The notes below the pieces were generated by a model. The model had not been told where the DNA came from. It did no database searches and saw only the letters and a program-made list of their open reading frames with translations. The position numbers were made by a program, and so were the translations under genes. A stretch of DNA of 64,000 nucleotides, taken from NCBI GenBank assembly GCA_049968235.1, contig JBMFRC010000001.1, forward strand, positions 30,243 to 94,242, in the 5' to 3' direction. Below, in pieces: positions 14,857 to 44,988 of the stretch; the stretch's first letter is position 1, and each line of letters begins with the position of its first letter. This DNA comes from Candidatus Hydrogenedens sp. Its GTDB lineage: Bacteria > Hydrogenedentota > Hydrogenedentia > Hydrogenedentales > Hydrogenedentaceae.

Positions 14857-15519
14857 ATAAAATACTCCGTAGATTATTGTTAAAAAGATATTTAATTTTA
14901 ACATGTTAAATCTAAAATACCTACGAATATTGTTATCACATTCCTTAATGCATAAACAAAAATAAATACAGGAAACAGTATAAGATATGCTAAATACAGG
15001 AGCAAATTATCTTTGCCCCGAATATAGCACAAGCATTTATTCCTTCTTTTGCAATTATAAGTGGTGCGATTATTTTAATTTATCAGAGTAATACAATTAT
15101 CCTGCTTTTGATAAATTCAATTTATTAATTAGCACCGGCATTTCTCTCTTTGCTTTTTACCACGAATGGTGCGAGATGTAAATAAGCATAAAGTATTTAT
15201 TATAGCAAATGATTATTCGCCATTACATAGAGATGCACTTGCCATGCAGGCGGGTTTTTGGAATGTGTTGGTAAAAATCGTTTCTGTCTGGCAGGACTTT
15301 CAGCAAGACAATGAGATAATTTTCACCACGGAGGACACGGAGGGACACATAGATATTTTTTTCTTATCACAGAAAGCACGGAGAACACAGAGAAGGGAAC
15401 AGAGAATAGGTATGAGTATGGATATATTTATTCTATGATTTATATTCTCCTTTCCTTTTTTCTCTGTGTTTCTCTGTATTCTCTGGGGTGGAGTATTTTT
15501 TTTCTCACCACAGAGAGCA

Positions 15520-15550
15520 CTATCTTTTCTTGTTAATGACTGCATATAAT
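15520..15550 (+). promoter_or_regulatory. Candidate sigma70-type promoter inside repeat copy A (TTGTTA ... TGCATATAAT)
   Basis: A near-consensus -10 (TATAAT preceded by TG two nt upstream) conserved in both repeat copies. The -35 is weak and the spacing suboptimal. Confidence 0.35.
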
Positions 15551-15724
15551 TTGAAGTGGATATATGAGGAATTAAGGGGGCAAAAGGAGAAGTATGCATA
15601 GGTAACCAAAAGATAAAAATACTCACAGAAAATAACAAATAAAATGGGTAAAAGTAGGGATACAGACTTTTGTATTTTAATTTTTCATCGGGATTTTATC
15701 TCATAAAAACATGTATAATTTATA

Positions 15725-15759
15725 CTCTTACCTCTTACCTCTTACCTCTTACCTCTTAC
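15725..15759 (+). repeat. (CTCTTAC)x5 perfect heptanucleotide microsatellite
   Basis: Five perfect tandem copies, present only in repeat copy A, 30 bp before the cas2 stop codon. Confidence 0.95.
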
Positions 15760-15789
15760 AAAAATTGTTCAGAGGTCTCGTGTATTTTT

Positions 15790-16116
15790 TTATACTATAA
15801 TAAGGTTGGGGTTTGAGATGGGTGTATAGTAGTTTAGTCCGTTTCTGTTGATAATTTTGATTTTATTTGCATCAGCATGGCAAAGGGGTATGATATGTAT
15901 AATAAGTTGTCGGTTTTGGTCATTGGGTTGTTCGTTGGAGAGGTAATCACGAATGGTTTCCTGTAGTTTTTCGATAAGGAGTTCTTTTTCATATTCATCG
16001 AGGTCGCCCATGAAAACGGAGAATTGTATGTGCGAAGTTCCTACTTCTTCGAGGAGGTAGGTTATTTTGTTTCGTAGTTTATCGTTTCCTATGTCGAATA
16101 ATAGTAGTGTTTGCAT
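15790..16116 (-). CDS. cas2: CRISPR-associated endoribonuclease Cas2 (apparently intact ORF, unusual G-poor coding strand)
   Basis: 108 aa. MQTLLLFDIGNDKLRNKITYLLEEVGTSHIQFSVF matches the Cas2 N-terminal consensus, including the catalytic Asp in the LFDI motif. Confidence 0.7.
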   Translation of the reverse strand: MQTLLLFDIGNDKLRNKITYLLEEVGTSHIQFSVFMGDLDEYEKELLIEKLQETIRDYLSNEQPNDQNRQLIIHIIPLCHADANKIKIINRNGLNYYTPISNPNLIIV

Positions 16117-16129
16117 AGGTTGATTTGTG

Positions 16130-17098
16130 TTATAGGTTGTATTTATTTTGTTGATTTAGGGTTTGTGTTAGTTTTATGGCTGCGAGCAGGATGTGTTTTT
16201 GGTAGTTGGTATTGGGGTCTTTGGGGGTAGGTTCATAGAGGCGTTCTATGTAAAGGGAGGAGAGTTTTTTTGTGTTTCTTTTTCGAGTAATCCGTTTTTC
16301 TGGAGTTGTACATTTATTCCTTGTCGTATGTAAGCGAGTAAGGGTGTATCGATGAGGGGTTGACGGAAAGGTTCGATAAAGAAGACGAGGGACTGTTTGT
16401 TGTTCTGTAGGGTGTGCAGAAACCCTGCATATGGGTCGAGTCCGGCGAGGGTTAAGGCACGGAAGCATTCGGAGTAGAGGATGCCGTAACCGTAGTTGAG
16501 TGCAGAATTGACGGGGTCTTTCGAATGTCGGTGTGTTCTGTGGGTAAAGTTATAATTGGCTGGGATAAGTTGTTTGAAATATGACCAGTAGATGGATGAG
16601 GCGTGTGCTTCGGTGGACATGATTTGTTGTTTTGCGTGGGATATATTTTCAGTGTTGATGGATTTTAATTTTTCGATGAGTGGGTAAATAGTATTGTGAA
16701 GTGTATCTTCGATTTGGGCTAAGTATGTTTTGTATCGACACAGGAATTAGAATTGGTTTTCGATTTTTGTTTGTATGTATTTTTTTGGCAATTTGTATGC
16801 CTAAGCCGTTCTGGATGGCTGTGTATTGGTTCCATCGGTTCTGGATATGGGGGTGATTGTATATAGGCTGGATAAAAGTGATGGAGTTCCCGTAGGGCTT
16901 ACATACGGTTAAGGCGATGTCTTGCTGGCTTGCGAGTGAAAGTGCTTCAGCGGAGATGGAAAATCCTTGGGTGAAGATGATGATGTGTGAGAGTTTGCTG
17001 GATGGGATTGTTTTAAGGGTTTTGTTTTCGCCGATAATTTTGAACATGTTTTTGTGTCTACCGACACGGATATTCTTTTCAATAAGGATGAGATGCAT
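16130..17098 (-). pseudogene. cas1: cas1 disrupted by at least one frameshift (Cas1 N-terminal half 16649-17098, C-terminal half 16246-16620+, possibly a third frame to 16130)
   Basis: N-half ...IIIFTQGFSISAEALSLASQQDIALTVCKPYG and C-half ...SALNYGYGILYSECFRALTLAGLDPYAGFLH match Cas1 conserved blocks. The two halves sit in different frames and switch near T/A homopolymers at ~16650-16690. RBS GAGGAGGA precedes the ATG at 17098. Confidence 0.7.
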
Positions 17099-17219
17099 GT
17101 TAAAGTCCTCCTCTTCATTATTTTTATTACATCTAACCTTAAAAAGTTGTATTATTTGCTATGTATTTAGTCCCAATCAATTTCGAGTTTGAACCAACCC
17201 ATAGGAAGGGATGCCTTTG

Positions 17220-18401
17220 TTATTTTTTTTGTGATGTAGTTAATTTATGAGACTTTGGATAAGGTATTTGGTCAGAACATCTGTCTCTCTTTGCTTTTCC
17301 CCATTTTTTGTCATTTGTATCTCCTTGTGAAAATAGTAATGTTATAGTTTTTGATAAAGAACCTGTGCCATAACCTAATTGTAAAAATATTTTTTTGCCT
17401 CTTTCTATCCTAATATCTTCAGGGATGTCATATTCATTTTTATTTACAGAATTAAAGAATTCCAGTTGTTTATCAATTAAAATTTCTGAGTATTTGCGTA
17501 AACAATCTTGAAAACTCTGTGTATCGTTAAGAACATTTTTAAGATATTTTATCTATTCTCCGTTATTATATTTATATTCATCCAACATAAATTTTAATGC
17601 TTGTTGGTCTAAATAGAAATCTATAATTATTTCTTTACCTTTAGGAATCAGGCATTCAGCAAATATATCAAATGGTTTAGTTGAAAATTTGTCTCCATTT
17701 TTACTTTTTACTTTTATTTGACATATTCCAAAATTGTCGATAGGAATCTCTTTAGAGTCTCTGATTACTAAAAATTTAAATAAATCATATTTTGCATCAT
17801 AATTCGAATTATCTACTTCTAATGTAGTATATTTTTCTATATTTTTATTAAGGAGAATATTATTAATATTATTTGACTCTTTAATTAAACAATTAGTGAC
17901 TGCATTTCTTATACATCCCTTTATACTTGAACCTGGAATAAAAAATTTCCCAAATGGGTATTTTATAAAGGAAAGGATTGGAGGAAGAGAAGTAGATTCT
18001 TGACATATAGATTTTGACTGAGAATTTTGGGATTGTTTTTTCTCAACTTGTTTCTGTATTTTTCTTAGTTCTGGAGGAAGTGCTGTATGTTTAGGCGATA
18101 TGGACCTTGATTGTTTATTTGTTTTTTCTCCTCTTGTTCCAAAATCAGCATATATAGGAAGAGAATAGCGAATATATTCAGGGTCGGGACGAAAGGAGGG
18201 TTCTTCAATAATCTTTAAATCAGTTTCATAATCTTCGCAATTATCCTGAAAATATTTCATGACATCTTTTAGACAGAATAATAGCTGTTTCTCGTCAATG
18301 TCAATGTAATATTCAAAATTCTGATATTCTTCGCCATCTGATATATGGATGGGAGTGATAGGTGTTAGTTTGAATTTGCCATGTTTCTTTTTATCGTTCA
18401 T
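17220..18401 (-). pseudogene. Csm5/Cmr6-group Cas7 RAMP gene interrupted by an in-frame TAG (plus 17553-17555)
   Basis: N-terminal KLTPITPIHISDGEEY resembles the Csm5 ...PIHIGSGE motif and FIPGSSIKGCIRNA the IPGSS(L/I)KG RAMP motif. After the TAG the same frame continues ~105 codons, including a QLGYGTGSLSKT G-rich loop. Confidence 0.6.
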
Positions 18402-18414
18402 TGTTTTTCTCCTT

Positions 18415-18666
18415 TTAAGGATGTTTGAAATAGATATTGAATGCGAGACCGGAACGCCAGATAGGATGAGGTGATGAGTCGTAACTGATGGCGATTACAT
18501 CCCCCTTAGGCATTTCTTTGATAACAGGGAATTTACTTCCTTCTATACACATACGAACAGATTGTTTGGGTTCATCATACCCGGCAATGCCATGTATCCA
18601 CCCACCTCGCATAGTGCATTCATAAGATGCGATATTGGTGAGAATACCATTTTCAAATTCTTCCAA
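18415..18666 (-). CDS. Hypothetical 83-aa ORF (TTG start); possibly the frameshifted C-terminal continuation of the upstream CARF-like gene
   Basis: A frameshift in the T7 run at 18792-18798 would fuse ...GFGHFTIKK to this frame. No family recognised. Confidence 0.3.
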   Translation of the reverse strand: MEEFENGILTNIASYECTMRGGWIHGIAGYDEPKQSVRMCIEGSKFPVIKEMPKGDVIAISYDSSPHPIWRSGLAFNIYFKHP

Positions 18667-18737
18667 AGTAGGATGATAAAGACTGAGTATTGCGGGACTG
18701 AGTATTGCGGTAGCTTTTGGTGGACTTTCCTGCCCAC

Positions 18738-19353
18738 TTATTTTGAGCGTATCATTTTCTTCAATAATATATTTTGATTCGAAAGGTTCAATTTTTTTAT
18801 AGTAAAATGTCCGAAACCTAAACTGCGTTCACCACCAATACCCAGTTTACCCAAAGCGGATAGAAAATTGACAAATGATTCTTTTTTCTCTTCTTCTAAT
18901 TTAACAAAAAACCACAATCCGACATCTTCTTCGCTATTTATCTCATAAAAATTTTGAGGGTAGGCTGTAGTTTGATTAGTAACCCGGTCAATGACGGTGG
19001 AAATTTTATAATTTTCTTTAACGGTTTTTTTGGAGGGGAAACCTTCTTTATTATTTATCAGGTCATTCATTTCTTCATTCAGGAGAAAAGTTGTTCCTGG
19101 ATTCTCTTCATCACCGTCTAAATAGGGATAATCTTCTTTTTTTTGGGAAAAGTTCTTTTAATATTTGCTGGGTTTCTTCTGCTTTTTGGAATATTGATGA
19201 AGTGGTTAGAAGAATGACATTATCAAAATCACCAATGTTAACAGAAGAAATAATCGGCCCCTATTGTGTTCCACCGGTGGGTGCTTCATCTACTCTCCCG
19301 TAAGGGTCATTTGTTCCTACAAAACTTAACAGTAGAGAAGATTTCCTCCCCAT
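18738..19353 (-). pseudogene. Csm6-like CARF-domain gene (CARF N-terminus; C-terminal R-X5-H / glycine-rich motif), disrupted by in-frame TAG (19261-19263) and frameshift(s)
   Basis: Reconstructed N-terminus MGRKSSLLLSFVGTNDPYG...DNVILLTTS resembles my recollection of Csm6 CARF N-termini (ILFSPIGNTDPW...DRVVLFFTES). Downstream LGKLGIGGERSLGFGHF could be a HEPN Rx4-6H motif or a RAMP G-loop. A frameshift sits at the T8 run 19137-19144. Confidence 0.45.
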
Positions 19354-19446: not shown

Positions 19447-19827
19447 TTATTTTTCGGGGAAAGAGGAGGGGTGGGAACCGATGGCGATAATACTGCAAGC
19501 GTAGATGGGATTTAAGTTGAGTTGGATTGCCTTTTGCATAAGTTCTTCGTCTTCCGCACCGGGGTTGATGTAAAGTTCCTCATGCTTCTTTTTAGCGATT
19601 GAGGGTAAAAGTGTTTTGCCGATTTGGGGAGGGACATAGACACTGATACGGTCGATAGGCTCGGGGACCTCCTCAATAGATTTATAGCAGGGAATTCCTT
19701 CAATTTCTGTAAGGTTTGGATTGACGGGATAAACTGTCCATCCTCTGGCAATATATGCACGAATAGCTTTGTTGCTATATTTGTTTTTGTCTGCAGATGC
19801 ACCGATGATTGCAACCGTTTTAGACAT
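19447..19827 (-). CDS. CoA-binding domain protein (YccU/YneT-like)
   Basis: MSKTVAIIGASADKNKYSNKAIRAY...VYPVNP is the typical CoA-binding Rossmann start. The track ORF extends upstream across clpP in another frame, so the internal Met is preferred. Confidence 0.65.
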   Translation of the reverse strand: MSKTVAIIGASADKNKYSNKAIRAYIARGWTVYPVNPNLTEIEGIPCYKSIEEVPEPIDRISVYVPPQIGKTLLPSIAKKKHEELYINPGAEDEELMQKAIQLNLNPIYACSIIAIGSHPSSFPEK

Positions 19828-40454: not shown

Positions 40455-41981
40455 ATGAGTTATGTAATTGGTATTGATGTAGGAACCAGTGGAACAAAAA
40501 TCGTTGCTATAAACGAAGAAGGGAAAGTAGTTGCATCTGTTATGAAAACTTATGATTTGCATAGTCCTAAACCGGGTTGGGCAGAACAAAATCCACATGA
40601 TTGGAAGAAAGCGGTATTTGATGGACTATCCGAAATTTGTCACCAGATTAACGGACAGGATGTCCGTGCTATTGGCTTAACAGGACAGATGCATGGTTCT
40701 GTTTTTTTAGATGAAAAAGGGGATGTTTTATATCCTGCGATTTTATGGTGTGACCAGCGAACAGCCAAACAATGTGAAAAGATTAATGAAATCGTCGGGG
40801 AAAAGAAACTTCTGGAAATGGTATCCAATCCTGCTTTAACAGGATTTACCGCTCCGAAAATTCTGTGGTTAAGAGACGAGGTTCCGGAGGTATATAAGAA
40901 AGTAAAGCATGTTCTGTTACCGAAAGATTATATCCGTTATGAACTTACTGGAGAATTTGCTTCAGATGTAGCGGATGCTTCGGGAACATTACTTTTTAAT
41001 GTCAATAAACGGTGCTGGCATGAGGAACTTTTAAGCAAATTGGATATACCTGTTGCATGGTTACCTAAAGTTTATGAAGGTACAGAGGTTACAGGTAAAA
41101 TAAAATCTTCTGTTGCAGAGCAACTGCGTTTATCTCCGGATGCGGTTGTTGTTGCAGGTGGAGGCGACCAGTCTGCAGGAGGTGTAGGTTGTGGAGTTGT
41201 CCGTTCGGGGATTGTTTCTGCTTCTCTGGGAACAAGTGGTGTCGTTTTTGCATTTGCGGAACATGTTCATACGGACCCGGAAGGGCGTGTTCATACTTTC
41301 TGCCATTCTGTTCCGGGAGCATGGCATGTAATGGGCGTCATGTTAAGTGCAGGGGGTTCTCTTCAATGGTTTCGAAATAAACTATGTAAGGAGGAGATTG
41401 AAAAATCAAAAGAAACAGGTATTGATACTTATGAATATATTACAGGACCGGCGGGAAAAGTTCCTATTGGCTCGAATGGCTTGATTTTCCTTCCCTATTT
41501 AACCGGGGAACGTACTCCCCATAAAGACCCCTATGCAAGAGGTGCTTTTATAGGCTTGTCTTTGATGCATGGGAAAACAGAAATGGCAAGGGCTGTAATG
41601 GAAGGGGTTGCTTTTGGTATGCGAGATAGTGTTGAGATTATGAGGGGAATGGGAATACCCATTAATGAGGTTCGTATATCAGGTGGAGGAGCACGGAGTA
41701 GTTTGTGGAGACAAATAATGGCTGATATATGTAAAGTTCCTATGATAGTTATAAATGTGGATGAAGGGCCTGCCTTTGGAGCAGGTTTGTTAGCAAGTAT
41801 TTCGGCGGGGATATTTACATCTCTTTCGGAAGCATGTGAAAGTATCATCAAGGAGTTGCACCGAGTAGAGCCTAATCCACAAAGCAGTGAGGAATATGAA
41901 TTCTGGTACCAGGAATATAGGTCGGCATATTTATCCATTGCACCTGCTTTTAGAAGAATTGGGAAAAAGTTAGAAGGATAA
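40455..41981 (+). CDS. xylB: Xylulokinase (FGGY carbohydrate kinase)
   Basis: N-terminal IGIDVGTSGTK, FGGY N- and C-domains, length 508 aa. Confidence 0.8.
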   Translation: MSYVIGIDVGTSGTKIVAINEEGKVVASVMKTYDLHSPKPGWAEQNPHDWKKAVFDGLSEICHQINGQDVRAIGLTGQMHGSVFLDEKGDVLYPAILWCDQRTAKQCEKINEIVGEKKLLEMVSNPALTGFTAPKILWLRDEVPEVYKKVKHVLLPKDYIRYELTGEFASDVADASGTLLFNVNKRCWHEELLSKLDIPVAWLPKVYEGTEVTGKIKSSVAEQLRLSPDAVVVAGGGDQSAGGVGCGVVRSGIVSASLGTSGVVFAFAEHVHTDPEGRVHTFCHSVPGAWHVMGVMLSAGGSLQWFRNKLCKEEIEKSKETGIDTYEYITGPAGKVPIGSNGLIFLPYLTGERTPHKDPYARGAFIGLSLMHGKTEMARAVMEGVAFGMRDSVEIMRGMGIPINEVRISGGGARSSLWRQIMADICKVPMIVINVDEGPAFGAGLLASISAGIFTSLSEACESIIKELHRVEPNPQSSEEYEFWYQEYRSAYLSIAPAFRRIGKKLEG

Positions 41982-42374
41982 AGAATTTTTTTATATATGA
42001 GGCCTCTGAATAAAACATATACGATAAATAGTATATGAAAGTTTATATACAGGAAGGATAAGGGAAAAAATGAAACGAAAGATGTATATATTTCACAAAA
42101 GGAATAGGTTAATTACACAGTAAAGAAAAAGTTAAATGGAGAAAGGTAAATGTGCGGTACAATGAAAGAGGTAAAGCAGATGAGGTTTTTAGATTATGCA
42201 GTATCAAAACAGAAACCGACATGATGAGAGAAATAATTGAAAGTGATGCCAGAGATAACCCTGTGGGAGAAATTGAAATGTAGATGAGTAGAGGGGAGTG
42301 TATAAATAAAACTGGGGATAGCGAAGGAGGTTTGTCCTTACTATTTTATGCATTGTTAACCAGTGAGTGATGAT

Positions 42375-42690
42375 TTCTTTTTGTTCTCTGTGGTTGATTA
42401 TGTTTTTTACATTACGGAGAACACGGAGAGGCTCAGAAAGAGGAGTATATCATTTCTTGTTAATGATTGCATATAATTTGAAGCGGATGTATGGGGAATT
42501 AAGGGAGCAAAAGGAGAGTTATGCATAGATAATAAAAAAATAAAAGAACTGACAGAAAATAATAACCGAAATGGGTAAAGGTAGAAATACAGACTCTTGT
42601 ATTTTAATTTCGTATGGGAATTTTATCTCATAAATAATTTATAATTTATACCCTAACCTTTTGCACGAATTGTTCAGAGGTCTCAAATAT
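42375..42690 (+). repeat. Intergenic repeated element, copy B (paralogue of 15375-15785)
   Basis: Shares the promoter-like CTTGTTAATGATTGCATATAAT, the mini-ORF AAGGAG-N5-ATGCATAGATAA and the terminal GAATTGTTCAGAGGTCTC. It abuts the stop of the 764-aa gene. Confidence 0.7.
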
Positions 42691-42693
42691 TGT

Positions 42694-44988
42694 TCAGGTA
42701 CTTGCATACTGGCGCAATTCTTGTAAAATTGTGGAAAGGCGTTCTGATGTTTTTTCGATATAAGGGAGAAATCTTTTTCCTTTTCCTTCACGAACCCCCA
42801 TACGATATTCCGTAAATTCACCTGCTAATTTTAAGACCTCTTCTTTATATTTATCCACAATAGTATTTTTTCCCTCACTTAATAAACGACACAAGACACC
42901 ATCACAGGCACATAAAATAGCCCCAACCTCAAAAAGTTTCCCCCGTACTTTATATATATCTTCTATTGTATAAAGGGTATTCGTTACTTGATTTTTTATT
43001 TCTACCATTTTTTGTAAGGTATTCATGGATTGTTTTTCTTTTAATTCTCTTATCCTATCTATTATTTTTTCTACCGATGGTAAATAGGGTTTAAGTAGTT
43101 CAACATTAATTGAAATTTGTTGCTCAATATAATCAAAAATTCGATACATAATTATCTCTCCCCAACGCTGGCATTCTTCGGGAGTAGCAATAAGAATAAT
43201 TTGTCCCTGTCCGGGAAACATTTCGCGATGGAAAGAGGGAGGTAGTTCTTCCCACTGGTAAGAACGGACAAATTGAGTAGCGTCGTATGCACGATATTGT
43301 TCCGGTAAAGCGGAACGGAAATTAATATTAACCCCTGTTACTTCTGATGTGTCTTGATTTACAAGATAAAACAACCAGAAATTTTCTCCTTTCATCCATG
43401 TATGAATTAAAATATCAACATTATCGGGACATCTTGAACGAGGATGTTTCCGTGATTGGATATCCGGTGAAAAATCAGGAGGATTTGTAGGTTTTGCTGT
43501 CATCACTAACGAGGCAAGAGAGTAGAAGCATCCTAACCTCCCTCCTAATTCCTGCCAGACATCACTGAAAGTCAGGAAAGGTCCTGTTAAAGAACGCTGA
43601 CATTCACCTCCTGACCATAGCGGTATATTATGGTATGTATAACTTAGCCATCCGCGGACACCGCTGGATATTGCCAAATTGACCATAAGTCGTATTTCTG
43701 GCGCAGAATTCCAAATAGGGGCGCCGGAACCAAAAACAAATGCGGGACCAATTGCCCATAAATGTTGCCCATTAACAAATTTTATATGGGTTTTAAGGAC
43801 ATGTCCTAATTCCCATGGAGTTTTTGATTTCCAATGACTTATCCCGGAAATTGAAGAAAAGGGAGCGTATACGGGGAAGGCATTGGCTTCTCGTGTAAGG
43901 TAAATGACAGGATGTTTTTCATCTATCTGTTCAATTTTCTTTTTGATTTGTATATAAGCATCTACTTCCGAATCGGAGGGATTTTCTTTGATTACCCATC
44001 CGAACAAATTATCTTCGGTAGAATATCTTTTAATAGAATGCTCTTTTTCTTTGATAAATGATGCTGTCTTTGTAGGTTCCAGGAGTACGGTTTCTTCTTC
44101 TAAAGAAATGATTAATTTAATATTGTGTTTTTTAGAGGTTTCAAAGAGTACTTCCTGGTCTCCTGGCAGGAATTCATAAAATCTTTCTACAAAGGCAACA
44201 TTATGATAATGTAGAGACATATCTTCAAATAATAAATCCAGATAAGAAGATAGGTCTATTTTCATAAGATGGGACATATTTCGGGCTGTATTAGCATTGA
44301 TATAGGTTCCTATCGGAAAGAAATTATCCAGGACAGGATAATGAATCGGTTTTTCATTGGCGGATGGTAAAATATCTTTTTTGTTGAGCAGGTTTCTTTC
44401 TCTTTCCGTAGGTTCTCGAAAGCGTATACTGCGAATATACATTGTCTCTTTTGTTCTTGTAAATGAATATAAGCGGAGAGCAAAGTTTTCCATCTTTCTC
44501 GGGAAACTATTGAAACACCATGCCCTTGCTACTGTAATCCATTTAAAATCCATATCGAGGAATTCAAAAAATTGACCTGTTGTATAGTGCCATGTCCATG
44601 CGGGAAGACATTTACCATATTGCATACGATAGGATATTTCAACAATGGGGTGTTTGTTCTGTGCTATAGGGAAATGGGGAACAGAACTTGTTCGAGTGCT
44701 TAATGGAACCCAGTAACTGGGTCTTTCCATGTCTTTTAAAAAATTTAATCTGCGTAATCCAGTAAAATCACCCGTCCATCGTAGAACTTTTTCTCCATCT
44801 ATTTCATCTATCATCTTTCGGGCAGGGATATCTTTCCACTCCTGTTCTCCCGGGTCATCTTCCTGGGACCATTTCATCAAATCTTCTGCATAAAATGTAA
44901 TATTTGAACATCTCTCCCGTTCTTCTAAAGTTGGCGGTTCTTTGATTTTGTTTAGAAGTCCTTTGTAAATATAATATTCGTTTTCCAT
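42694..44988 (-). CDS. Hypothetical 764-aa protein (possible glycoside-hydrolase-like; co-oriented with sugar ABC transporter genes)
   Basis: Long ORF with no recognised motifs. A hydrolase role is suggested only by context. Confidence 0.4.
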   Translation of the reverse strand: MENEYYIYKGLLNKIKEPPTLEERERCSNITFYAEDLMKWSQEDDPGEQEWKDIPARKMIDEIDGEKVLRWTGDFTGLRRLNFLKDMERPSYWVPLSTRTSSVPHFPIAQNKHPIVEISYRMQYGKCLPAWTWHYTTGQFFEFLDMDFKWITVARAWCFNSFPRKMENFALRLYSFTRTKETMYIRSIRFREPTERERNLLNKKDILPSANEKPIHYPVLDNFFPIGTYINANTARNMSHLMKIDLSSYLDLLFEDMSLHYHNVAFVERFYEFLPGDQEVLFETSKKHNIKLIISLEEETVLLEPTKTASFIKEKEHSIKRYSTEDNLFGWVIKENPSDSEVDAYIQIKKKIEQIDEKHPVIYLTREANAFPVYAPFSSISGISHWKSKTPWELGHVLKTHIKFVNGQHLWAIGPAFVFGSGAPIWNSAPEIRLMVNLAISSGVRGWLSYTYHNIPLWSGGECQRSLTGPFLTFSDVWQELGGRLGCFYSLASLVMTAKPTNPPDFSPDIQSRKHPRSRCPDNVDILIHTWMKGENFWLFYLVNQDTSEVTGVNINFRSALPEQYRAYDATQFVRSYQWEELPPSFHREMFPGQGQIILIATPEECQRWGEIIMYRIFDYIEQQISINVELLKPYLPSVEKIIDRIRELKEKQSMNTLQKMVEIKNQVTNTLYTIEDIYKVRGKLFEVGAILCACDGVLCRLLSEGKNTIVDKYKEEVLKLAGEFTEYRMGVREGKGKRFLPYIEKTSERLSTILQELRQYAST

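What the first reader, a model, noticed from the sequence alone, without database searches (positions are those of the whole stretch)
15785..17100. Extreme strand-asymmetric base composition confined exactly to cas1-cas2
Across cas2 and cas1 the + strand is almost devoid of C. In 16641-16700 I counted about 3 C versus about 16 G per 60 nt, and in 16141-16240 about 7 C versus about 35 G per 100 nt. The minus-strand coding sequences are therefore G-poor and C/A-rich. Normal composition resumes abruptly at the Cas1 start (~17100) and at the cas2 stop. The encoded Cas1 and Cas2 are still recognisable but strongly depleted in Gly/Ala/Val/Asp/Glu (GNN codons) and enriched in Asn/Lys/Ile/His/Gln/Thr/Ser. 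Several positions where Cas1 usually carries acidic or Gly residues read N, K or S here. This is the signature expected from G->A changes on the coding strand, i.e. C->T deamination of the template strand. Alternatively the module was acquired from a replicon with bizarre strand bias, or this is a chimeric assembly. Trp TGG codons survive, which argues for selection or only moderate mutational load. Such localized, strand-specific skew is not a described property of bacterial cas loci.
Basis: partly seen in the sequence, partly recalled or inferred. Interest (0 to 1): 0.7.

Follow-up and report, generated by a model that had tools for sequence, protein, structure and literature searches.

The report
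Inherited strand-skewed cas1–cas2 remnant
The odd, C-starved stretch is real, but it is not fresh mutational damage: it is a dead CRISPR cas1–cas2 remnant from a small group of Candidatus Hydrogenedens genes that all inherited an extreme one-strand base bias of unknown origin.

Summary
Window 15785-17100 has + strand GC skew +0.47, about 4 SD above other windows, with edges at the cas2 stop and the cas1 start.

Five other diverged cas1-cas2 lineages recovered here, assembled independently from other samples and mostly with intact genes, have the same sense-strand bias (-0.36 to -0.59). Where the neighbours are on the contig, these sit beside compositionally normal csm genes or Candidatus Hydrogenedens host genes. 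The genes are under purifying selection (dN/dS 0.04-0.15). A seventh, decayed lineage reaches -0.71.

At third codon positions the main effect is C replacing T (C3 0.40 vs 0.13 in host genes) plus loss of G. A is not raised. Changes on the window's own branch run C→T and A→G, the reverse of the proposed G→A.

Using the adjacent RtcR-csm4 genes as clock and mutation model, an ancestor with almost no T or G at synonymous sites reproduces today's values. The skew is therefore best read as an old relic that is slowly ameliorating. What created the ancestral state is unresolved.

cas1 has two frameshifts, a nonsense codon and a deleted acidic motif residue. csm4 and csm5 are broken, cas10, csm2 and csm3 are deleted, and there is no array.

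The parts
15790..17100 (-). Strand-skewed tract. The sense (minus) strand is A+C-rich and G-poor, and the tract coincides with cas2 plus the cas1 pseudogene.
   Evidence: The + strand GC skew is +0.47, about 4 SD from other windows, with edges sharp to within 50 nt. By codon position, G1 is 0.17-0.22, C3 is 0.36-0.47 and G3 is 0.04-0.10.
15790..16116 (-). cas2, an intact 108-aa ORF
   Evidence: It matches Pfam CRISPR_Cas2 (PF09827) at E 5.5e-10. It aligns end to end with the 108-aa Cas2 of relatives, at 71% identity to L001.
16130..17098 (-). cas1 pseudogene. Lesions: a +1 insertion at 16788, a CAA→TAA nonsense codon at 16747-16749, a 3-nt deletion after 16382 that removes the Asp of SLVFDFIEPFR, and a 1-nt deletion after 16267.
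   Evidence: Its fragments match Pfam Cas_Cas1 at E 2.7e-14 and 8.7e-34. The reading frame switches in the three-frame translations. The lesions were located by alignment to intact relatives and confirmed by tblastn, which finds the match in three frames.
17173..18401 (-). csm5 pseudogene, with an in-frame stop at 17553-17555 and a further stop plus frameshift near 17232. Its base composition is normal.
   Evidence: It matches Pfam RAMPs. tblastn with the L001 and L011 Csm5 proteins covers 17173-18401 across the stop, and the translation shows the stop directly. The + strand GC skew over 17101-19070 is -0.04 to +0.03.
18403..19139 (-). csm4 fragment covering residues ~140-375 only, with a frameshift near 18800
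   Evidence: It matches Pfam Csm4_C and RAMPs. tblastn with L001 Csm4 matches in two frames.
19138..19353 (-). N-terminal 72 residues of an RtcR-like sigma-54 activator. It is fused directly to mid-csm4, which marks the deletion that removed most of rtcR, cas10, csm2, csm3 and the csm4 N-terminus.
   Evidence: tblastn matches L001 RtcR residues 1-72 at 56% identity. The intact gene order in relatives is RtcR-cas10-csm2-csm3-csm4-csm5-cas1-cas2.
15521..15789 (.). Partial copy of a MITE-like repeat that abuts the cas2 stop and sits where relatives have the leader and CRISPR array. It carries the terminal motif GAGACCTCTGAACAA at 15765-15779 (minus strand) and a 5x CTCTTAC tandem at 15725-15759.
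   Evidence: It is 85% identical to 42448-42694. The motif has 3 matches in the window against 0.01 expected. The tandem repeat was reported. Neither the CRISPR repeat consensus nor any array-like repeat is found in the window.

Best explanation
What it is: the tract is the surviving cas1(pseudogene)-cas2 end of a decayed type III-A CRISPR-Cas island in a Candidatus Hydrogenedens chromosome.

Where the composition comes from: it was inherited, not made here. The genes belong to a small, isolated Cas1-Cas2 clade, known only from Hydrogenedens-type metagenome contigs. The common ancestor of that clade already had a sense strand almost free of T and G at synonymous sites, roughly A 0.3 and C 0.7, and proteins depleted in G-containing codons. 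That module was joined to compositionally ordinary csm genes.

What has happened since: ordinary host mutation, mainly C→T and A→G on the sense strand, has been eroding the bias at about the pace at which the neighbouring genes diverge. Purifying selection has meanwhile kept Cas1 and Cas2 functional in most lineages. In the window's lineage the island has died, but so recently that the skew is still nearly full strength.

Shown:
- The skew is clade-wide.
- The neighbouring genes have normal composition.
- The genes are under purifying selection.
- Recent changes run in the erosion direction.
- The present composition fits amelioration from an A/C-only ancestor quantitatively.

Inferred, with low confidence: the ancestral state was built over a long stem period by a strand-asymmetric pressure equivalent to T→C plus G→A on the sense strand. 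One possibility is residence on a replicon or locus whose antisense strand is chronically single-stranded.
For: Clade-wide skew beside normal neighbours:
- cas1/cas2 of L001, L003, L005/7/8, L006, L033, L036 and L039 have coding-strand GC skew -0.36 to -0.59 for cas1 and -0.19 to -0.34 for cas2 where computed. In the same loci RtcR, cas10 and csm2-4 range from -0.08 to +0.30, with csm5 slightly more negative at +0.03 to -0.20; all six genes have C3 of 0.07-0.24.
- No other gene in the window, and none in the other fetched loci scanned for this (L023, L027, L030 and the CRISPR-bearing loci), looks like this.

Isolated clade:
- Only four 90%-identity clusters lie at 69-79% identity to the window's Cas1, then nothing until 32-37%. 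This holds in both the 5.8-billion and the 1.84-billion protein libraries.
- cas1 DNA of the outgroups has normal skew, +0.02 to +0.11.

Hosts are Hydrogenedens. Close relatives without the island go straight from the clpP-CoA-binding genes to other genes.

Functional constraint: dN/dS is 0.04-0.15.

Nucleotide-level effect: NNC is preferred over NNT and NNA over NNG in every codon family, unlike host highly expressed genes, which keep GGT, CGT and CCT.

Direction of recent change:
- The near-identical trio L005/L007/L008 shows C→T 8-11 against T→C 0.
- L033 is the least skewed lineage (C3 0.30, T3 0.35), with C→T 15 and A→G 10 on its branch.
- Pooled pos-3 C→T:T→C on four of those branches is 43:3, above the roughly 4:1 that parsimony bias alone could give (plus my calculation).

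Non-stationarity: a stationary model is rejected by 32 lnL units. The best 10-taxon fit has a root composition of A .28, C .69, G .03, T .00 (bootstrap C .62-.75).

Clock test: the substitution process and branch lengths fitted to RtcR-csm4 of the same loci (0.5-0.67 substitutions per site) were applied to the cas1/cas2 third positions. The least-squares root is A .27, C .71, G .02, T .00. It predicts C .30-.34, T .27-.30 and G .06-.07, against observed C .30-.40, T .22-.34 and G .06-.08.
Against: - The direction inferred by maximum likelihood is not robust. A second optimum, with a T-rich root and a strong ongoing T→C drive, is only 5.5 lnL worse with 10 taxa and is better by 7 lnL with four taxa.
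- L006 appears to have gained C after divergence: A→C 29 against C→A 10, and T→C 9 against C→T 4.
- In L011/L012/L016 the skew is strongest (-0.71). There it covers csm4, csm5, an intergenic spacer, a dead cas1 stub and an array remnant. Some drive may therefore still act in some lineages.
- T is depleted only at synonymous sites. T1 and T2 are normal and Pro is not enriched. That looks more like codon-level selection than mutation pressure.
- No donor replicon was found in the plasmid, phage or viral collections.
- Three of the four lineages are slightly less eroded than the clock test predicts.
Confidence: 0.6

Rival explanations
1. Selection on the composition of the sense strand or its transcript. 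Under this view a C-rich, G-poor cas1-cas2 message is actively favoured. Possible reasons are that such RNA is unstructured, that it is the type of RNA Rho loads on, or that NNC/NNA codons are preferred. Ordinary C→T mutation is then continually purged.
For: - T→C replacement is confined to synonymous sites. T1 and T2 are host-like.
- Host genes also show a milder NNC>NNT and NNA>NNG trend in better-expressed genes. C3/(C3+T3) is 0.51-0.61 in the CoA-binding gene and 0.44 in clpP.
- Recent differences are almost all C→T with no T→C, as expected under mutation-selection balance.
- L006 gains C from A, T and G alike.
- Fits on nine or ten taxa all need sense-strand T→C to be 4-20 times faster than A→G; in the four-taxon fits the C-rich-root optimum needs only 1.15. 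Control genes give 1.2-1.9.
Against: - In four-fold codon families the clade prefers C everywhere, whereas host high-expression genes prefer T or A.
- G is also removed from first and second positions, at the cost of nearly invariant Gly and Arg residues. Codon selection does not explain that.
- The skew is strongest in a dead cas1 stub and reaches non-coding spacers in L011.
- L033 has clearly relaxed although its genes are intact.
- YC dinucleotides are not enriched beyond what composition predicts.
- Plain amelioration fits the numbers without invoking selection.
Confidence: 0.17
2. An ongoing, locus-bound, strand-specific mutation or repair process. Under this view the template strand of the cas1-cas2 end of the operon is repeatedly left single-stranded, for example by antisense transcription from the leader or by nicking and gap repair of the sense strand. 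It then suffers A→G and C→T deamination, as the mitochondrial heavy strand does.
For: - The third-position composition (A .32, C .40, G .06, T .22) resembles vertebrate mitochondrial light-strand genes (established knowledge).
- The bias is uniform across codon families.
- The sequence 100-200 nt past the cas2 stop, and the non-coding 300-nt insert in L001, are also G-poor.
- The skew forms a gradient in L011, with csm4 -0.32, csm5 -0.53 and cas1 -0.71, and in L006.
- The skew is most extreme in a pseudogene.
Against: - The most recent changes run the opposite way, with C→T and no T→C, in the closely related copies L005/L007/L008. Parsimony on the longer L001, L033, L039 and window branches points the same way but is biased towards common-to-rare changes.
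- L006's gains are largely A→C transversions, which are not deamination.
- Sense transcription would expose the other strand (established knowledge).
- No antisense promoter or terminator stands out.
- There is no dinucleotide context signal.
- Part of the downstream skew in L007 is simply a minus-strand IS1595-like transposase gene.
Confidence: 0.15
3. One reading: recent G→A hypermutation of the coding strand (template-strand cytosine deamination) in this genome, with only a moderate mutational load.
For: The coding strand is G-poor. Many conserved Gly, Asp, Glu and Arg positions read Asn, Lys or Gln, which is reachable by G→A. cas1 is a pseudogene.
Against: - The same composition occurs in intact, constrained orthologues that have diverged 20-30%.
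- A3 is not raised.
- The window branch has G→A 0-2 against A→G 8-10.
- The lesions are indels plus a C→T nonsense codon.
- No deaminase context is seen.
Confidence: 0.02
4. Assembly chimera or sequencing artefact, for example strand-specific damage.
For: The composition switches abruptly at both ends.
Against: - The pattern recurs in at least 12 independent contigs from different projects and assemblers.
- The csm5 end and intergenic region upstream of cas1 are collinear with L003.
- The open reading frames in relatives are under purifying selection.
Confidence: 0.01

Closest known systems
Cas1-Cas2 adaptation module of type III-A (Csm) CRISPR-Cas loci
   Same: The fragments match Pfam Cas_Cas1 and CRISPR_Cas2. 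Relatives have the gene order csm1(cas10)-csm2-csm3-csm4-csm5-cas1-cas2, followed by a leader and an array of ~37-nt repeats ending ...GGGATAGAAAC.
   Different: - The window copy is dead: cas1 is broken, cas10/csm2/csm3 are deleted and there is no array.
- The clade is a long, isolated branch, at most 37% identical to any other Cas1.
- Nearly invariant Gly, Arg and Pro residues are replaced by Asn, Gln and His.
- The sense strand has a GC skew of -0.4 to -0.7, which the outgroup cas1 genes examined here do not show.
Strand-asymmetric composition of vertebrate mitochondrial light-strand genes, attributed to heavy-strand deamination while single-stranded
   Same: The sense strand is A+C-rich. 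G3 is about 0.05 and C3 exceeds T3. The amino-acid usage is shifted by nucleotide pressure. In some relatives there is a hint of a positional gradient (the mitochondrial values are from established knowledge).
   Different: - Here the bias affects one 1.3-kb gene pair inside a normal bacterial chromosome, not a whole replicon.
- T is depleted only at synonymous sites.
- Recent changes erode the bias rather than build it.
- No asymmetric replication mechanism is known for this locus.
APOBEC-type or bacterial deaminase G→A hypermutation
   Same: The coding strand is G-poor. Several Gly→Asn/Ser, Arg→Gln/His/Lys, Val→Ile and Glu→Lys replacements are reachable by G→A.
   Different: - There is no excess of A at synonymous sites.
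- There is no preferred dinucleotide context.
- The bias is shared by functional orthologues.
- No TGG→stop codons are seen.
- The dominant synonymous shift is T→C.
Amelioration of horizontally acquired genes (the Lawrence & Ochman concept)
   Same: It is a compositional island with sharp gene-level borders. Its third positions drift toward host values at about the divergence rate of neighbouring genes.
   Different: The starting composition is not that of any known genome. A G1 of 0.18 and a nearly two-letter third position are gene-specific and strand-specific, not a GC-content difference. No donor was found.
Rho utilisation (rut) regions, which are C-rich, G-poor unstructured RNA
   Same: The sense RNA has a C/G ratio of 1.4-5.2 in almost every 78-nt window across cas1-cas2.
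   Different: The tract is 1.3 kb long and translated, not a ~80-nt untranslated site. YC dinucleotides are not enriched beyond composition. There is no evidence of termination, and this was not tested functionally.

Membership tests
Cas1 (PF01867) integrase | Sequence match to the family profile | tested here: met
   ORF 16649-17098 matches at E 2.7e-14 and ORF 16246-16620 at E 8.7e-34. The repaired protein is 69-79% identical to intact Cas1 proteins P0001-P0004.
Cas1 (PF01867) integrase | Uninterrupted reading frame of ~320-330 aa | tested here: not met
   There is a +1 insertion at 16788, a TAA at 16747-16749 and a -1 deletion after 16267. The protein is spread over three frames.
Cas1 (PF01867) integrase | Conserved catalytic Glu, His and acidic pair (E...H...SLVxDxxExFR) | tested here: not met
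   Glu (IMSTEAHAS), His (GFLHT) and the Glu of FIEPFR are present. The Asp of SLVFDF is removed by a 3-nt deletion after 16382. All four intact clade members keep it.
Cas2 (PF09827) | Profile match, full-length ORF and N-terminal Asp in the beta1 strand | tested here: met
   The profile match is E 5.5e-10. The 108-aa ORF is collinear with relatives, and the motif LLLFDIGND is retained. Activity was not tested.
Type III-A (Csm) CRISPR-Cas system | cas10/csm1 plus csm2-csm5 effector genes | tested here: not met
   tblastn finds only the RtcR N-terminal 72 aa, csm4 residues 140-375 (frameshifted) and csm5 (stop plus frameshift). There is no cas10, csm2 or csm3. The syntenic relatives L001, L033, L036 and L039 have the full set.
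Type III-A (Csm) CRISPR-Cas system | Adjacent CRISPR array | tested here: not met
   The repeat consensus of relatives has no match at up to 3 mismatches, and no short-period direct repeats occur anywhere in the 64 kb. Relatives L002 and L003 have arrays 550-780 nt past cas2.
Deaminase-type G→A hypermutation of the coding strand | Excess of G→A over all other changes relative to close intact homologues | tested here: not met
   The window branch shows G→A 0-2, A→G 8-10, C→T 15-16 and T→C 6-10.
Deaminase-type G→A hypermutation of the coding strand | A enriched at synonymous sites, and a preferred dinucleotide context | tested here: not met
   A3 is 0.32 against 0.35 in the host. At codon junctions the observed/expected ratios are GA 0.73, GG 1.57 and AG 0.70, on small counts and with no coherent context.
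Deaminase-type G→A hypermutation of the coding strand | Confined to the affected copy, with normal composition in orthologues | tested here: not met
   All clade members share the skew.
Mitochondrion-like asymmetric single-strand deamination | Sense strand A+C-rich with very low G3 | tested here: met
   Third positions are A .32, C .40, G .06 and T .22.
Mitochondrion-like asymmetric single-strand deamination | Ongoing excess of sense-strand T→C and G→A substitutions | tested here: inconclusive
   Close comparisons show the reverse. ML fits give T→C/A→G of 4-20 but have two optima with opposite histories.
Horizontally acquired compositional island undergoing amelioration | Composition unlike neighbours, with sharp borders at gene ends | tested here: met
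Horizontally acquired compositional island undergoing amelioration | Drift toward host composition at the neutral rate | tested here: met
   The clock test with RtcR-csm4 reproduces the observed third-position values from an A/C-only root. L033 is the furthest along.
Horizontally acquired compositional island undergoing amelioration | Identifiable donor with the same composition | tested here: not met
   There are no close relatives in the plasmid, phage or IMG/VR collections. No intermediates exist among 1.84 billion representative proteins.

The most novel reading that the evidence does not exclude
A CRISPR adaptation module, and in L011-type loci the neighbouring csm genes too, has been driven to an almost two-letter (A/C) synonymous alphabet on its sense strand. 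The driver would be a strand-specific process tied to the locus or to its vehicle. Candidates are repeated passage through a single-stranded or cDNA intermediate with both adenine and cytosine deamination of the antisense strand, or self-inflicted nicking and gap repair next to the array. The process would still be active in some Hydrogenedens lineages (L006, L011) while other lineages decay. This would be a previously undescribed, gene-scale directional mutation or selection regime in bacteria.
Probability: 0.2. Interest if true: 0.8.

Novelty: new variant of a known kind. Interest (0 to 1): 0.5.

Why it matters
Bacterial genes normally share their genome's composition, and known strand biases are modest and span whole replicons. 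Here a single functional gene pair carries a sense-strand GC skew of -0.4 to -0.7, and its inferred ancestor had almost no T or G at synonymous sites. The bias was strong enough to replace nearly invariant Gly, Arg and Pro residues of Cas1 while the enzyme stayed under purifying selection.

If the cause can be found, it could be an unsampled strand-asymmetric replicon, a locus-bound mutational process, or selection for G-free transcripts. Any of these would reveal either a new vehicle for CRISPR adaptation modules or a new kind of local compositional drive. The clade would also offer a natural experiment on how far Cas1-Cas2 tolerate recoding.

For this particular window the practical message is more modest: the feature is an inherited relic inside a dead CRISPR island, not evidence of recent hypermutation or misassembly.

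Tried and rejected
- An exact look-up of the window's Cas2 found nothing on record.
- A single-protein scan of genome contigs found no relative. The scan with an alignment did.
- Viral contigs, plasmids and phages hold no close relative, so no donor was identified.
- Rfam gave only sub-threshold microRNA-like hits on a hairpin outside the tract.
- Promoter and terminator scans were no different from shuffled sequence.
- Dinucleotide and YC analysis showed no deaminase context and no rut-like enrichment.
- Literature searches found no description of such a skew in cas genes or in Hydrogenedentes CRISPR loci.
- I first read near-chance synonymous identity between lineages as saturation, and so as proof that the skew is actively maintained. 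I dropped that argument. An all-C ancestor eroding independently in each lineage gives exactly chance-level identity.
- Parsimony polarisation at 13-25% divergence overcounts common→rare changes. I used it only after bounding that bias.
- Non-stationary ML has two optima whose ranking depends on which taxa are included, so I did not rely on it alone.
- I first read the skew downstream of cas2 in L007 as a non-coding extension. Much of it is a minus-strand IS1595-like transposase gene.
- An overlapping antisense gene is unlikely: third positions differ freely between lineages (near-chance identity), so the long antisense ORFs are best read as a by-product of the A-poor antisense strand. No test for a conserved RNA structure was run.
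Full report
**1. The observation**

The + strand of 15785-17100 has A284, C141, G392 and T499, giving GC skew +0.47 and AT skew -0.28. All other 1300-nt windows have mean skew 0.02, SD 0.11 and a maximum absolute value of 0.37. In 50-nt bins the change happens within one bin at each end: 15750 has C8/G6 and 15800 has C3/G17, while 17050 has C8/G11 and 17100 has C10/G3 (profile). The edges coincide with the stop of cas2 (15790-16116, minus strand) and the start of cas1 (…17098).

**2. What lies there**

Pfam identifies Cas2 (E 5.5e-10) and two Cas1 fragments (E 2.7e-14 and 8.7e-34). Upstream are RAMP/Csm4_C fragments.

cas1 is not intact. The protein runs through three frames. Alignment with intact relatives pinpoints four lesions:
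- a +1 insertion at 16788;
- a CAA→TAA nonsense codon at 16747-16749;
- a 3-nt deletion after 16382, which removes the Asp of the conserved SLVFDFIEPFR motif;
- a 1-nt deletion after 16267.

The neighbouring genes are also broken. tblastn with the proteins of a complete relative shows:
- csm5 (17173-18401) with an in-frame stop and a frameshift;
- csm4 reduced to residues ~140-375, with a frameshift;
- the first 72 residues of an RtcR-like sigma-54 activator (19138-19353) fused directly to mid-csm4.

So rtcR, cas10, csm2, csm3 and the start of csm4 were lost in one deletion. No CRISPR array exists anywhere in the window. Where relatives have the leader and array, the window has a partial copy of a MITE-like repeat that abuts the cas2 stop. 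The locus is a fossil type III-A island in which only cas2 is still an open frame.

**3. Host and relatives**

The flanking trigger factor is 88-90% identical to proteins named Candidatus Hydrogenedens sp.. Several close relatives go from clpP and the CoA-binding gene straight to unrelated genes, so the CRISPR locus is an island.

The repaired Cas1 finds only four 90%-identity clusters at 69-79% identity, followed by a gap down to 32%. A filter-free search of 1.84 billion representative proteins again shows one 50% cluster and nothing between 73% and 37%.

DNA was recovered for seven distinct lineages:
- the window;
- L001 (=L002/L015);
- L033;
- L003 and L036;
- L005/L007/L008 and L039;
- L006;
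- L011 (=L012/L016).

Complete loci (L001, L033, L036, L039) are RtcR-cas10-csm2-csm3-csm4-csm5-cas1-cas2. L001 and L036 sit in the same clpP/CoA-binding context as the window. L002 and L003 have arrays of a repeat ending GGGATAGAAAC, in the same orientation as the cas genes. Where flanks are informative the host is Hydrogenedens.

**4. The skew is a property of the clade, not of this copy**

In every relative, cas1 has a coding-strand GC skew of -0.36 to -0.59. cas2, where computed, is -0.19 to -0.34, and the decayed L011 copy reaches -0.71. RtcR, cas10 and csm2-4 in the same loci lie at -0.08 to +0.30, with csm5 slightly more negative at +0.03 to -0.20. Outgroup cas1 genes have +0.02 to +0.11. 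No other gene in the window or in the other fetched loci that were scanned resembles it. Pairwise dN/dS of 0.04-0.15 shows that the proteins are under purifying selection. This excludes both a chimeric assembly and a hypermutation event in this genome.

**5. Anatomy of the bias**

| Codon position | Clade cas1/cas2 | Host genes |
|---|---|---|
| G at position 1 | 0.18 | about 0.32 |
| G at position 2 | 0.10 | about 0.16 |
| Position 3 (A / C / G / T) | .32 / .40 / .06 / .22 | .35 / .13 / .14 / .37 |

The largest synonymous effect is C replacing T, and A is not raised. The NNC>NNT and NNA>NNG preference holds in every codon family. That includes the four-fold families, where host high-expression genes prefer T or A, so this is a nucleotide-level bias rather than ordinary translational optimisation.

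Residues with GNN codons fall to 18% from 31-35%. Nearly invariant Cas1 residues are replaced: Gly (99-100% conserved) becomes Asn, Arg (98%) becomes Gln, and Pro (97%) becomes Gln. T at first and second positions is unchanged. Dinucleotide contexts are unremarkable.

**6. Is the bias being made now?**

The near-identical trio L005/L007/L008 differs mainly by sense-strand C→T (8-11) with no T→C. L033, whose genes are intact, is the least skewed lineage (C3 .30, T3 .35). Its branch carries 15 C→T and 10 A→G against 1 T→C and 0 G→A.

On the window's own branch, G→A is 0-2 against A→G 8-10, and C→T is 15-16 against T→C 6-10. Parsimony overcounts common→rare changes. However, the pooled third-position ratio on four of those branches (43:3) exceeds the roughly 4:1 that this bias could generate (my calculation). 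So in most lineages present-day change erodes the skew.

There are exceptions. L006 seems to have gained C (A→C 29 against C→A 10). L011 is the most extreme, with csm4, csm5, an intergenic spacer, a cas1 stub and an array remnant all G-poor and C-rich.

**7. Relic or maintained?**

I first took the near-chance synonymous identity between lineages as saturation, and therefore as evidence of active maintenance. That argument fails, because an ancestor with only C at NNY sites, eroding independently in each lineage, also gives chance-level identity.

A 12-rate non-reversible ML model on 423 third positions rejects stationarity by 32 lnL units. With all ten taxa it places A .28, C .69, G .03, T .00 at the root, with bootstrap C of .62-.75. 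A second optimum, with a T-rich root and a strong T→C drive, is 5.5 lnL worse with ten taxa but 7 lnL better with four. ML alone therefore does not settle the direction.

An independent test does better. I fitted the substitution process and branch lengths on RtcR-csm4 of L001, L033, L036 and L039. The process there is near-symmetric (T→C/A→G of 1.2-1.9), and root-to-tip paths are 0.5-0.67 substitutions per site. I then asked which root composition, evolved under that process for that time, best reproduces the cas1/cas2 third positions. The answer is A .27, C .71, G .02, T .00. It predicts C .30-.34, T .27-.30 and G .06-.07, against observed C .30-.40, T .22-.34 and G .06-.08.

Ordinary amelioration from an almost two-letter ancestor is therefore quantitatively sufficient. 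It agrees with the erosion seen in close comparisons.

**8. Best explanation and what remains open**

The tract is an inherited compositional relic in a recently dead gene pair. The module had its extreme state before it was joined to compositionally ordinary csm genes in the ancestor of the L001, L003, L005 and window lineages. The csm5 end and the intergenic region are collinear and unskewed in the window and in L003.

How the ancestral state arose is not shown. The net change is equivalent to sense-strand T→C plus G→A, that is, both hydrolytic deaminations on the antisense strand. This resembles mitochondrial heavy-strand damage and suggests long residence where that strand was chronically single-stranded. 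But the restriction of T loss to synonymous sites, the A→C gains in L006 and the extreme L011 locus leave room for two alternatives. One is selection on transcript composition (C-rich, G-poor RNA). The other is a locus-bound drive that persists in some lineages. No donor replicon was found, and no publication describing such a skew was found in the library.

**9. Verdict**

Its alternative of foreign DNA with bizarre strand bias is the nearest to the evidence, with the refinement that the foreignness is old, clade-wide and now decaying.

The thing itself is a known kind, a degraded type III-A adaptation module. Its compositional state appears undescribed and its origin is unexplained. Interest is moderate.

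Noticed in passing
window 41999-42684; partial copy at 15521-15789; also L005 1823-1837 and L008 3834-3848: A MITE-like element of about 690 nt, bounded by the inverted 15-mers GAGRCCTCTGAAYAA (3 matches in the window against 0.01 expected). One full copy follows the gene at 40455-41981. A partial copy (85% identical over ~270 nt) abuts the cas2 stop, where relatives have the leader and array. The same end motif lies ~400 nt downstream of cas2 in L005 and L008, interrupting an IS1595-like transposase fragment. It may have been involved in loss of the array.
   Followed up: partly
window 15725-15759: A perfect 5x tandem of CTCTTAC inside the cas2-adjacent repeat copy. It is absent from the copy at 42448-42694.
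   Followed up: no
window 15366-15489: A long imperfect hairpin (CACAGAGAAGGGAACAGAGAATAGG ... CTCTGTGTTTCTCTGTATTCTCTG). Rfam picks it up only as sub-threshold microRNA-precursor-like hits. It overlaps the unannotated ORF at 15166-15438.
   Followed up: no
L001 1672-3192, L033 1630-3153, L036 632-2143, L039 1753-3282; window 19138-19353 (fragment): Every complete relative of this type III-A locus begins with an RtcR-family sigma-54 activator (Pfam RtcR + Sigma54_activat) immediately upstream of cas10. RtcR N-terminal domains are CARF-like by established knowledge, so this could be a cyclic-oligoadenylate-responsive transcription switch. No csm6/csx1-type gene lies between RtcR and cas2 in the complete loci.
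   Followed up: no
L001 11000-11272 (= L002 2252-2524): A 300-nt insert between cas1 and cas2, called as a 90-aa ORF with no Pfam hit. It shows no coding periodicity (G1 0.09) and is itself G-poor (skew -0.39). It is absent from all other clade members; L033 instead has a ~96-nt spacer between cas1 and cas2 that was not compared with it.
   Followed up: partly
L016 ~1200-1260: In this MAG contig the ribosomal protein S8 gene runs straight into the middle of csm5. L011, which is identical downstream, has a complete csm5 preceded by csm4. This is probably a chimeric join or a rearrangement in L016.
   Followed up: partly
L011 2520-2700 (= L016 2520-2700 region): The cas1 stub (residues ~7-164) is fused to two degenerate CRISPR repeats (…CTGCTGAAAGTCC… and …CTACTGAAAAAGGGATAGACAC). 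This is a second, independent decay of the same kind of locus.
   Followed up: partly
L007 4811-5380 (minus strand); L008 3697-3850: An IS1595-like transposase gene lies just downstream of cas2 in L007, and a truncated fragment of it lies downstream of cas2 in L008. No array is seen on these contigs.
   Followed up: no
window 19447-19827; L036 159-539; L023 12188-12568: The small CoA-binding protein gene next to clpP has the strongest native preference for C-ending over T-ending codons among host genes (C3/(C3+T3) of 0.51-0.61). This shows that the host has a mild codon-usage axis in the same direction as the cas1-cas2 bias.
   Followed up: partly
window 18681-18710: A perfect 15-nt tandem duplication (GACTGAGTATTGCGG x2) inside the csm4 fragment.
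   Followed up: no
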